From sequence record NC_004928.1: DNA of 64,000 nt; one strand, written 5' to 3'. Below the pieces are notes generated by a model that saw only the letters and a list, made by a program, of their open reading frames with translations, made no database searches and was not told where the DNA came from. Made by a program: the position numbers and the translations under genes. How positions within the stretch are numbered: the first letter of the stretch is position 1; each line of letters starts with the position of its first letter. Shown here one piece after another: positions 36,075 to 36,605 of this stretch. Source of the stretch: Escherichia phage RB69.

Positions 36075-36103
36075 ATAGAAACACATCCTACAGGAGAGTA
36101 AAC
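36075..36103 (-). promoter_or_regulatory. Putative early promoter (GTTTAC, 17 nt, TTCTAT), a diverged copy of the 35615-35656 cassette
   Basis: About 75 percent nucleotide similarity to 35581-35661 by eye. Confidence 0.4.
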
Positions 36104-36134
36104 ATCTTTTTAAACTTTTTCTGCCCTAAACGCA

Positions 36135-36157
36135 CAAAAGGGAGACCGAAGTCTCCC
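36135..36157 (-). terminator. Rho-independent terminator (GGGAGAC-UUCG-GUCUCCC plus U-run) after the small basic-protein gene
   Basis: Same 18-nt hairpin as at 13234 and 50032. Confidence 0.75.
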
Positions 36158-36162
36158 TAAAA

Positions 36163-36342
36163 TTATGCAACAACCTTTCCAAAACGAGAAGCATCATCTC
36201 GAAGAACTGCACGTGCTCTGCGCATGATCTTCTCAACGGTTTGATTAATACGAGAGTTCGACCCACGCTTGTATCCAGCGCGTTTAGAGGTACCATCAAC
36301 TTTCTTTTCAACTGCTTTCTTTGCTTTAGCTTGTTTTGCCAT
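36163..36342 (-). CDS. Small lysine/arginine-rich protein (59 aa), missed by the ORF track
   Basis: MAKQAKAKKAVEKKVDGTSKRAGYKRGSNSRINQTVEKIMRRARAVLRDDASRFGKVVA; T4-typical codons; terminator immediately downstream. Confidence 0.55.
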   Translation of the reverse strand: MAKQAKAKKAVEKKVDGTSKRAGYKRGSNSRINQTVEKIMRRARAVLRDDASRFGKVVA

Positions 36343-36605
36343 TATAAATTCTCTTTAAATGAAAATGCAGGACTTATTGGCGTTGCCTGCGCAAGCCCTC
36401 AACGGGAACATAGGTTTTGGATATTTAACGACAGGATAACCATAAACCTCGTCATCATACCAACCACGACTTAGACAGATAACCTTTTTCTGACGCGTGA
36501 TAGTACAAAATACATTCAAGAGGTACACCGTAAAACTGCCGGGGTCTTAAAACTATAATGATTCGCAAATCATTAATCAGACAGTTCGACGGCTCCTCGA
36601 TTTAC
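36343..36605 (-). pseudogene. Probable decayed small gene (30.9-like position) between rIII and the basic-protein gene
   Basis: No intact ORF, but protein-like segments in two frames (…RIIIVLRPRQFYGVPLECILYYHASEKGYLSKS… then …GWYDDEVYGYPVVKYPKPMFPLRACAGNANKSCIFI-stop). Confidence 0.3.

What the first reader, a model, noticed from the sequence alone, without database searches (positions are those of the whole stretch)
36163..36342. Unannotated 59-aa lysine/arginine-rich protein gene with its own terminator
MAKQAKAKKAVEKKVDGTSKRAGYKRGSNSRINQTVEKIMRRARAVLRDDASRFGKVVA is below the ORF-track cutoff but has T4-like codon usage and a perfect UUCG terminator right downstream. Its strongly basic composition suggests nucleic-acid binding.
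Basis: seen in the sequence. Interest (0 to 1): 0.45.

Follow-up and report, generated by a model that had tools for sequence, protein, structure and literature searches.

The report
T4 gene 30.9 ortholog, function unknown
The 59-codon reading frame is a real, conserved, early-expressed phage gene, but it is the already catalogued T4 gene 30.9, a very basic small protein whose function is still unknown and which T4 does not need in the laboratory.

Summary
Window 36163-36342 (minus strand) encodes the quoted 59-aa protein. It has a Shine-Dalgarno sequence 8 nt upstream of the ATG, the window's own codon usage, and a GGGAGAC-UUCG-GUCUCCC-UUUUGUG hairpin directly after the stop codon.

It is not new. 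It is the ortholog of T4 gene 30.9 (NP_049823, "conserved hypothetical", PHROG 1427). It is found in about 1,000 T4-like phage records at the same position (31 - rIII - 30.9 - 30.8). dN/dS is 0.09-0.7, and the terminator hairpin is kept through compensatory changes in 46 of 47 loci.

Published T4 data class its mRNA as early. The protein was not seen by tryptic mass spectrometry (only one peptide of 7 aa or more is possible). Knockdown causes no fitness loss.

No Pfam, NCBIfam, PADLOC, PDB or fold match exists. The family (about 160 clusters, all 53-105 aa) shares a K-rich N-terminus, an almost invariant R-x-GYKR-x-[ST]N-x-R motif and a basic amphipathic helix. Nucleic-acid binding, probably RNA, is the best guess but is untested.

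Side finding: the "spacer" upstream of the gene holds conserved, covarying RNA hairpins. In about 400 related phages, but not in this window, it also holds a 143-nt pseudoknotted RNA with no Rfam match.

The parts
36163..36342 (-). Coding sequence of the 59-aa basic protein, the ortholog of T4 gp30.9 (stop codon included).
   Evidence: ORF listing; 93% identical to T4 gp30.9; PHROG 1427 at E 2.4e-31; dN/dS 0.09-0.71 with an excess of third-position changes; codon usage is the best of six frames.
36350..36355 (-). Shine-Dalgarno-like AAGAGA, 7-8 nt upstream of the ATG.
   Evidence: Read from the sequence. A purine-rich GGAAG/GAGA block sits at the same distance in the other genera.
36132..36158 (-). 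Intrinsic terminator: 7-8 bp GC-rich stem, UUCG loop, UUUUGUG tail, starting 5 nt after the stop codon.
   Evidence: Inverted repeat I1; fold of -20 kcal/mol, z = -3.7. Present in 46 of 47 dereplicated loci with at least four different stem sequences (GGGAGAC, GGGACTCC, GGGAACC, GGGGCTCC), so pairing is kept by compensatory change. Annotated by ARNold in phage ATK47. Actual termination was not measured.
36075..36103 (-). Early-promoter-like site for the next gene (30.8): GTTTAC, 17 nt, TTCTAT. Together with the terminator it forms a PeSL-type composite terminator/promoter and marks the end of the 30.9 transcription unit.
   Evidence: GTTTAC-N17/18-TAnnnT is conserved after the hairpin in most loci and fits the T4/PST PeSL promoter consensus TTTACW-N17-TAYWAT (Comeau 2014, PMC4122927). 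In this window the -10 reads TTCTAT where close relatives have TACTAT. Activity was not tested.
36349..36365 (-). Weak hairpin over the ribosome-binding site (UUUUC-N7-GAGAA).
   Evidence: Other genera have CUCC-N5-6-GGAAG at the same place. The mean probability of the SD being unpaired is 0.3-0.6 here, against 0.5-0.97 in distant homologs that have a promoter directly upstream. Suggestive only.
36429..36454 (-). Conserved hairpin in the 5' region of 30.9: stem UGACG/UGUCG closing the conserved loop AGGUUUAUGGUUAUCC.
   Evidence: RNAalifold finds the 3-bp core with 0 broken pairs in 18 sequences: GC in all 18; UA 11, AU 6, GC 1; CG 12, GC 6. 88.9% of cells are paired against 71% in shuffles, the covariation score is 0.44 against 0.14 (0 of 500 shuffles), and slid registers give 10-69%. 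The motif is unique in the 64-kb window.
36367..36409 (-). Conserved block with two small hairpins: CCC-GUUGA-GGG (36396-36406) and GCAGG...CCUGC (36367-36390).
   Evidence: Conserved across genera. The second stem reads GGGAGC...GCUCCC or GGGAAC...GUUCCC in other genera; this was seen by eye and not formally counted. Unique in the window, with 0 expected by chance.

Best explanation
The feature is the ortholog of bacteriophage T4 gene 30.9 in a Mosigvirus-type T4-like phage. It is a small, self-contained early gene ending in its own intrinsic terminator, which is followed immediately by the early promoter of gene 30.8.

The product is a 6.6-kDa protein with charge +13 and three parts:
- A lysine/alanine-rich N-terminus that varies in sequence and is predicted disordered.
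- An almost invariant motif S-K-R-A-G-Y-K-R-x-S-N-x-R-I-N.
- A basic amphipathic helix, residues 29-54.

Most likely mechanism (inferred, not shown): early in infection the protein binds a nucleic-acid target that is conserved across gammaproteobacterial hosts or across the phages themselves. I favour RNA (ribosomal RNA or mRNA) over DNA. The invariant basic-Tyr-Gly-Asn motif would make the specific contacts, the K-rich N-terminus would act as a non-specific electrostatic tether, and the amphipathic helix would either dimerise or dock on a partner. The function is accessory, since T4 tolerates its knockdown. The structured 5' region of its own mRNA is a candidate operator for autoregulation.

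The identity part of this statement is near certain (above 0.95). The confidence given below refers to the mechanism.
For: Identity and reality:
- Synteny cd - 31.1 - 31 - rIII - 30.9 - 30.8, 97.5% DNA identity to Mosigvirus phages and 93% protein identity to T4 gp30.9.
- 1,005 phage records by tblastn.
- Purifying selection.
- The terminator is conserved with compensatory changes, and a PeSL-type promoter follows it.

Expression: T4 30.9 mRNA is classed as early (PMC9697503 Table S2). Two of the three distant homologs examined have a sigma70-type promoter directly upstream (TTGACA-17-TATTAT and TTGACC-17-TATAAT), and all three have a hairpin after the stop.

Mechanism:
- Net charge +13 and pI 11.35.
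- Family-wide invariant residues R21, G23, Y24, K25, R26, R31, plus N29 and R44, from Aeromonas, Pseudomonas and enterobacterial phages. That implies one specific, conserved target rather than bulk charge.
- AlphaFold2 gives a confident helix at 29-54 (pLDDT 81-88) and a low-confidence N-terminus.
- The hydrophobic moment peaks at 0.77 for residues 31-48.
- The Pseudomonas phage homolog adds an AKKAKSRKPSATKAAKAAKKI tail of the kind found in DNA/RNA-binding proteins.
- Conserved, covarying hairpins lie in the gene's own 5' region.
Against: - No detectable homology to any nucleic-acid-binding family. Pfam, NCBIfam and PADLOC are negative. The PDB profile search gives only a non-significant 25-residue match to a SlmA helix (E 0.14). 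Foldseek gives nothing.
- No binding experiment exists.
- The protein has never been detected directly; it is 'NA' in T4 proteomics. This is expected, because trypsin leaves only one peptide of 7 aa or more.
- Knockdown has no phenotype (CRISPRi-ART score 0.04, p 0.26), so no biological read-out is known.
- The 5' hairpins are absent from the distant homologs that keep the invariant motif, so they cannot be the protein's only target.
- The 140-nt 5' region is not more stable than shuffled sequence (z = -0.5).
- A strongly basic amphipathic peptide could equally bind an acidic protein or a membrane.
Confidence: 0.4

Rival explanations
1. gp30.9 is a small inhibitor or modulator that binds a host (or phage) protein rather than nucleic acid. 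It would dock its amphipathic helix and basic motif on an acidic surface, for example on a host takeover target or an anti-phage defence protein, as many small T4 early proteins do.
For: - Early expression.
- Dispensable on a laboratory host, which is typical of host-range or counter-defence genes.
- It sits in a region of small accessory early genes flanked by PeSL-type cassettes.
- Strict invariance of a short motif fits a specific protein interface as well as an RNA site.
- In the most distant phages it directly follows the co-chaperonin gene 31.
Against: - No similarity to any known anti-defence or inhibitor family.
- Known DNA-mimic and decoy inhibitors are usually acidic (my own knowledge), whereas this protein has charge +13.
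- No partner is suggested by any fusion: 162 family members are all single-domain, 53-105 aa.
Confidence: 0.3
2. gp30.9 is a cationic amphipathic peptide that acts at the inner membrane, possibly in the lysis or lysis-inhibition pathway of its neighbour rIII.
For: The C-terminal helix has a high hydrophobic moment (up to 0.77). The gene lies next to rIII in most genera.
Against: - The mean hydrophobicity of the helix is negative (-0.35 to -0.55) and there is no hydrophobic segment.
- The gene has its own terminator, and in two of three distant relatives its own promoter, so it is not co-regulated with rIII as a unit.
- Aeromonas and Pseudomonas phages keep 30.9 without an adjacent rIII.
- It is an early transcript, while lysis functions act late.
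Confidence: 0.07
3. The ORF is not translated. What is conserved is an RNA or DNA element, and the reading frame is incidental.
For: The protein was never detected by mass spectrometry, knockdown has no phenotype, and the neighbouring intergenic region shows that non-coding conservation does occur here.
Against: - dN/dS is below 1 in all informative pairs, with third-position changes dominating.
- The frame, start codon, SD position and length are kept in all 47 dereplicated loci despite up to about 60% amino-acid divergence.
- Indels within the ORF preserve the reading frame (alignment), whereas the adjacent non-coding region tolerates 1-nt indels.
- Codon usage is typical of real genes.
- The MS blind spot is explained by the tryptic peptide sizes.
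Confidence: 0.02

Closest known systems
Bacteriophage T4 gp30.9 (gene 30.9, T4p212, NP_049823; UniProt P17310; PHROG 1427)
   Same: Same gene. It has 93% amino-acid identity, the same position between rIII and 30.8, the same MAKQAKAKK start, the same hairpin-plus-U-run after the stop, and the same conserved upstream region.
   Different: - 59 aa against 58 aa.
- Residues 15-18 are VDGT against V-GD, and the C-terminus is KVVA against KQKA.
- The terminator stem is GGGAGAC rather than GAGGACTCC.
- The intergenic region is 263 nt against 244 nt, with a roughly 50-nt block that T4 lacks.
- UniProt's 97-aa '11.1 kDa' model of the T4 protein is an over-extension: in this window a TAA closes that frame, and the extension is not conserved.
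PeSL cassettes (promoter-early stem-loop; composite terminator/early-promoter motifs of T4-type phages; Arbiol 2010 PMC2839356, Comeau 2014 PMC4122927)
   Same: A stem-loop is followed directly by a T4-type early promoter (GTTTAC-N17/18-TAYWAT), and the pair borders a small accessory early gene.
   Different: - In this window the -10 hexamer is TTCTAT, which lacks the consensus A at its second position.
- I did not test whether this copy takes part in recombinational shuffling.
- The papers do not mention 30.9.
Arginine-rich-motif RNA-binding peptides of phages, such as lambda N (analogy recalled from my own knowledge; a lead, not a test)
   Same: A small, very basic protein, largely disordered on its own, with a short conserved basic segment next to a helix, and a conserved RNA hairpin with a conserved loop lying nearby on its own transcript.
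   Different: There is no sequence similarity (Pfam lists no N-family hit even at E up to 10) and no evidence of antitermination. The hairpin is missing from distant family members.
T4 translational autoregulators (RegA, gp32, gp43), which bind operators in their own mRNA leaders (established T4 biology; reviewed in PMC3014915, which was listed but not read here)
   Same: A possible arrangement of a nucleic-acid-binding phage protein encoded behind a structured leader whose ribosome-binding site lies in a weak hairpin.
   Different: There is no homology to any of them and no evidence that gp30.9 binds its leader. This is a hypothesis only.

Membership tests
T4 gp30.9 family (PHROG 1427) | Significant sequence similarity over the full length | tested here: met
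   PHROG 1427 at E 2.4e-31, residues 1-57; 93% identity to T4 gp30.9.
T4 gp30.9 family (PHROG 1427) | Conserved position downstream of gene 31/rIII and upstream of 30.8 | tested here: met
   Window ORFs and annotated records of at least 8 genera. Distant members stay in the cd-31-ligase region.
T4 gp30.9 family (PHROG 1427) | Early transcription | not testable with these tools
   Known for T4 only (PMC9697503 Table S2). No promoter was assigned in this window.
Intrinsic (Rho-independent) terminator | GC-rich stem, short loop, and a U-tract directly after the stem | tested here: met
   7-8 bp stem with 5 G-C pairs, UUCG loop, UUUUGUG tail. The simple scan did not list it.
Intrinsic (Rho-independent) terminator | Structure conserved through compensatory changes in relatives | tested here: met
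   46 of 47 loci, with at least four stem sequences.
Intrinsic (Rho-independent) terminator | Transcripts actually end there | not testable with these tools
   Needs Term-seq or 3' RACE.
PeSL composite terminator/early promoter | Stem-loop followed by an early promoter TTTACW-N17-TAYWAT | tested here: inconclusive
   The stem-loop and GTTTAC-N17 are present, but the window's -10 is TTCTAT, whereas close relatives have TACTAT.
Known nucleic-acid-binding, ribosomal or RNA-chaperone protein families | Profile match to a curated family | tested here: not met
   Pfam best E is 0.14, for unrelated families. NCBIfam best E is 0.034, far below the cutoff.
SlmA / TetR-family nucleoid occlusion factor | Significant similarity including the HTH domain | tested here: not met
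   Only a 25-residue helix aligns, at E 0.14-7.
GH13 1,4-alpha-glucan branching enzyme (the label carried by this gene in several GenBank/UniRef records) | GH13 catalytic domain, several hundred residues long | tested here: not met
   The protein is 59 aa with no GH13 Pfam hit. The label appears and is an annotation-pipeline error.
Known anti-phage-defence or counter-defence proteins | Match to PADLOC or PHROG functional families | tested here: not met
   PADLOC gives 0 hits. The PHROG is of 'unknown function'.
Rfam RNA families (for the upstream conserved region) | Covariance-model match | tested here: not met
   No hit near gathering score in the window or in seven related loci; the only hits are driven by the terminator hairpin.

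The most novel reading that the evidence does not exclude
gp30.9 is the founding member of an unrecognised class of phage-encoded, arginine/lysine-rich RNA-binding mini-proteins. Its invariant RxGYKRx[ST]NxR motif would recognise a conserved RNA (ribosomal RNA, or the structured leader of its own mRNA). The mosaic of covarying hairpins upstream of the gene, together with the optional 143-nt pseudoknotted RNA found at this locus in about 400 related phages, would be its cis-regulatory partner or an independent new non-coding RNA or ribozyme.
Probability: 0.12. Interest if true: 0.6.

Novelty: already known. Interest (0 to 1): 0.27.

Why it matters
As a gene call it adds nothing new, because T4 gene 30.9 is in the T4 reference annotation. 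Its value is as a reminder that one of the most widely conserved small early genes of T4-like phages still has no function. It occurs in about 1,000 genomes, from Escherichia phages to Aeromonas and Pseudomonas phages.

This work supplies what is needed to test it:
- The correct 58-59-aa start, as opposed to the 68-, 97- and 102-aa database models.
- The family signature motif.
- The reason it escapes tryptic proteomics.
- Evidence that it forms a self-contained promoter-gene-terminator cassette in distant relatives.

The more original by-product is that the rIII-30.9 "spacer" is a mosaic of conserved, covarying RNA structures absent from Rfam. One of these is a 143-nt pseudoknotted element that is more conserved than the genes around it.

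Tried and rejected
1. N-terminally extended gene models (68, 97 and 102 aa; UniProt '11.1 kDa protein'). Rejected because the extensions are not conserved, MAKQ is, and this window has an in-frame TAA 5 codons upstream of the ATG.

2. A second small protein gene in the rIII-30.9 gap (ORF 36355-36528, 57 aa, in frame with 30.9; some records-43-aa ORFs there). Rejected because T4 has 1-nt indels that destroy the frame while the nucleotides stay conserved.

3. Function by homology. Pfam, PHROGs, NCBIfam, PADLOC, a PDB profile search, Foldseek against PDB, an exhaustive HMM search of 1.84 billion representatives and a second profile search of 5.8 billion proteins gave only small hypothetical phage proteins with no fusions.

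4. The SlmA helix similarity is not significant.

5. The 'glycogen branching enzyme' label is an annotation artefact.

6. Literature searches for gp30.9, T4p212, NP_049823 and 'gene 30.9' found no functional study. No T4 Ribo-seq data were found. My first guess of the UniProt name (Y12A) was wrong; the accession is P17310.

7. A promoter for 30.9 in the gap. The consensus scan found none and no mapped T4 middle promoter lies there. The candidates I saw by eye (TTTACG-N16-TATTTT, and TGgTATGAT) are not conserved or conflict with the hairpin. Left unresolved.

8. The upstream motifs as dispersed repeats. Rejected: each occurs once in the 64-kb window.

9. A globally stable structure for the 5' region. 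Not supported (z = -0.5). Only local stems covary.

10. tRNA or tmRNA in the gap: none found.

Full report
OBSERVATION

AAGAGA sits 7-8 nt before the ATG.

Measured against 47 long ORFs of the same window, the ORF's frame scores +0.31 log2-odds per codon. That is the best of the six frames and is typical of real genes (0.35 +/- 0.18). GC is 0.58/0.46/0.29 at codon positions 1/2/3.

Five bases after the stop codon lies a perfect 8-bp inverted repeat, AGGGAGAC/GTCTCCCT, with a UUCG loop and a UUUUGUG tail. The region folds at -20 kcal/mol, with z = -3.7 against dinucleotide shuffles. The simple terminator scan did not report it, probably because extending the stem by the A-U pair leaves only four U in its tail window; I did not test that.

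The protein has 18 K+R against 5 D+E, a net charge of +13 and a pI of 11.35. Every factual element of the finding is confirmed.

IDENTITY

The surrounding ORFs are dCMP deaminase (cd), 31.1, the co-chaperonin gene 31 and rIII upstream, and 30.8 and 30.7 downstream. The 1.8-kb region is 97.5-97.7% identical to Mosigvirus phages such as ST2 and ChristianSchoenbein.

The ORF corresponds to CDS bas46_0043 in ChristianSchoenbein, to the CDS annotated '30.9 ... T4 gene synonym 31.-2' in ATK47, and to T4 gene 30.9 (T4p212, NP_049823, 'conserved hypothetical protein'). It matches PHROG 1427 (unknown function) at E 2.4e-31.

tblastn finds it in 1,005 phage records; BLAST's low-complexity filter masks the K/A-rich N-terminus in those hits.

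IS IT REALLY A PROTEIN?

The evidence says yes.
- Across ten phages from at least eight genera, dN/dS is 0.09-0.71, and third-position differences dominate, for example 5/5/18 for the window against a Klebsiella phage.
- All homologs start with MAK/MSK. The 68-, 97- and 102-aa database versions, including UniProt's '11.1 kDa protein in Gp30-rIII intergenic region', carry non-conserved extensions.
- Published T4 data class the 30.9 mRNA as early and list the protein as not detected (PMC9697503 Table S2). The non-detection is uninformative, because trypsin yields a single peptide of 7 aa or more.
- dCas13d knockdown of T4 30.9 gave no fitness effect (score 0.04, p 0.26, 'Not Fit'), and that paper also lists the function as unknown (PMC11879866 supplements).

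TRANSCRIPTION UNIT

The hairpin plus U-run follows the stop codon in 46 of 47 dereplicated loci. At least four stem sequences occur (GGGAGAC, GGGACTCC, GGGAACC, GGGGCTCC), so pairing rather than sequence is conserved. The exception is a Pseudomonas phage in which the next gene overlaps the stop codon.

Right after the hairpin most loci have GTTTAC-N17/18-TAnnnT. This matches the early-promoter half of the 'PeSL' composite terminator/promoter cassettes described for T4-type phages, whose T4/PST consensus is TTTACW-N17-TAYWAT (PMC4122927). In the window the -10 is TTCTAT rather than TACTAT.

Three distant homologs were examined (a metagenomic contig, an ENA contig and an Aeromonas Biquartavirus). 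Two have a good sigma70 promoter directly upstream, and all three have a hairpin after the stop. The gene is therefore a self-contained early cassette.

I could not assign the promoter in this window. The scan finds none, and no mapped T4 middle promoter lies in the gap (PMC2988021 Table 1).

WHAT THE PROTEIN LOOKS LIKE

An exhaustive HMM search of 1.84 billion cluster representatives found only 18 hits. A broader profile against 5.8 billion proteins found 162; those listed are 53-105 aa long, come from phages and have no informative fusions.

All share one architecture:
- MAK plus a K/A-rich segment of variable sequence.
- An almost invariant (S/T)KRAGYKR-x-(S/T)N-x-R(I/V)(N/D) motif. Family-wide invariant residues are R21, G23, Y24, K25, R26 and R31, with N29 and R44 nearly invariant.
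- A basic amphipathic helix.

AlphaFold2 (mean pLDDT 67) predicts a confident helix for residues 29-54 (pLDDT 81-88) and an unconfident N-terminal half. The hydrophobic moment peaks at 0.77 for residues 31-48. The Pseudomonas phage version adds an AKKAKSRKPSATKAAKAAKKI tail.

Pfam, NCBIfam and PADLOC give nothing. A PDB profile search gives only a non-significant 25-residue match to a SlmA helix (E 0.14). Foldseek gives nothing. The label '1,4-alpha-glucan branching enzyme' on this gene in several records is an annotation error.

MECHANISM

The following is inferred, not shown. A short motif that stays invariant from Aeromonas and Pseudomonas phages to coliphages, next to a segment conserved only in composition, points to one specific and highly conserved target plus an electrostatic tether.

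The charge, the Tyr/Gly/Asn/Arg content, the disorder-plus-helix layout and the H1-like tail of one homolog make nucleic acid the best guess, and I favour RNA. I put this at about 0.4.

The rivals are as follows:
- A protein-binding inhibitor of a host or defence factor, about 0.3. This would fit the dispensability on a laboratory host and the accessory-gene setting.
- A membrane or lysis role linked to rIII, which is unlikely. The helix is hydrophilic overall, the gene is regulated separately, and it persists without rIII.
- A non-translated ORF, which is excluded for practical purposes by the substitution pattern.

SIDE FINDING: THE UPSTREAM 'SPACER'

The 263 nt between rIII and 30.9 are not neutral. 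A 128-nt core is 90-98% identical in 775 phage records, as conserved as the coding sequence. T4 carries 1-nt indels within it that break any reading frame, so the 57-aa ORF 36355-36528 is not a gene.

The gap is modular, from 120 to 416 nt across loci. A hairpin at 36429-36454 (UGACG...UGUCG closing the loop AGGUUUAUGGUUAUCC) is present in 40 of the 45 loci that could be delimited. Its two middle pairs covary (UA/AU/GC and CG/GC) with no broken pair in 18 distinct sequences. Pairing is 88.9% against 71% in shuffles, with 0 of 500 shuffles reaching it, and slid registers are much lower.

The ribosome-binding site lies in a weak hairpin that changes from UUUUC...GAGAA to CUCC...GGAAG between genera. 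The region as a whole is not unusually stable (z = -0.5). Rfam has no match, and the motifs are unique in the window.

In relatives but not in this window, the same gap carries a 143-nt element that is 95% identical column by column across phages whose rIII proteins are only 68-90% identical to the window's. A seven-helix model including a pseudoknot pairs in 100% of 416 cells, with five pairs changed on both sides and none broken; slid controls give 22-40%. It is single-copy in 407 phage records and has no Rfam hit at E up to 1. Whether these RNAs regulate 30.9, or are bound by its product, is open.

VERDICT

This is a correct gene call for an already known gene of unknown function. As a discovery it is ordinary. 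It is mildly interesting as a well-defined, widely conserved orphan, and for the unannotated structured RNAs next to it.

Noticed in passing
window 36343-36605 (minus strand), especially 36367-36461: The rIII-30.9 intergenic region is as conserved as coding sequence (a 128-nt core is 90-98% identical in 775 phage records). It contains a hairpin with covarying pairs and a conserved loop (36429-36454), plus two further small hairpins (36396-36406 and 36367-36390). There is no Rfam match. It could be a structured leader or a non-coding RNA.
   Followed up: partly
L004 about 585-727 (Klebsiella phage Wolf_ER13); also L008, L009, L017, L018, L026, L028-L030, L035, L040, L042, L046. Absent from the window.: A 143-nt element is inserted in the same intergenic region. 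It is single-copy in 407 phage records (Klebsiella, Escherichia, Enterobacter, Yersinia, Aeromonas and others) and 95% identical although the flanking genes diverge. The seven-helix model includes a pseudoknot and a GAAA/UAAA tetraloop: 100% of cells pair and 5 pairs show compensatory changes. There is no Rfam hit at E up to 1. It is a candidate new mobile structured RNA, riboswitch or ribozyme. Many records annotate spurious small ORFs over it.
   Followed up: partly
window 36355-36528 (minus strand): A 57-aa GTG ORF lies in the same frame as 30.9, separated from it by one TAA. Together with UniProt's 97-aa P17310 model and the 68-102-aa models in other phages, it is an artefact of open frames over the conserved non-coding region. 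T4 has frame-breaking 1-nt indels there.
   Followed up: yes
window 36556-36575: A perfect 8-bp AT-rich inverted repeat, TAATGATT-TGCG-AATCATTA, followed by UAGUUUU, lies about 30 nt after the rIII stop codon. It is shared with T4 and IME08 and could be a weak terminator or a processing site for the rIII transcript.
   Followed up: no
window 36075-36080: The -10 hexamer of the early-type promoter for gene 30.8 reads TTCTAT in this phage, whereas close relatives (L001, L011) have TACTAT. The consensus A at the second position is lost, so the 30.8 promoter may be weakened.
   Followed up: no
public records seen: Systematic mis-annotations propagate in GenBank and UniRef. The 58-aa gp30.9 is labelled '1,4-alpha-glucan (glycogen) branching enzyme, GH-13-type', and the neighbouring 31.1 is labelled 'tail fibers protein'.
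   Followed up: partly
L010 (Pseudomonas phage PspYZU05) 856-1134; L053/L054 (Aeromonas phage avDM9-HANS): In the most distant phages the 30.9 homolog directly follows the co-chaperonin gene 31, with no rIII between them. The Pseudomonas version is 92 aa long, with a histone-H1-like AKKA-rich C-terminal tail and no terminator.
   Followed up: partly
window 36470-36520 (minus strand); L011, L038: A further conserved roughly 35-nt module (…ATCAYGCGTCAGMAAAAGGTTAKCTGTSTAAG…) is present in the window and IME08 and absent from T4. It reappears in other positions of the gap in other genera, flanked by short inverted repeats, which adds to the mosaic nature of this region.
   Followed up: no
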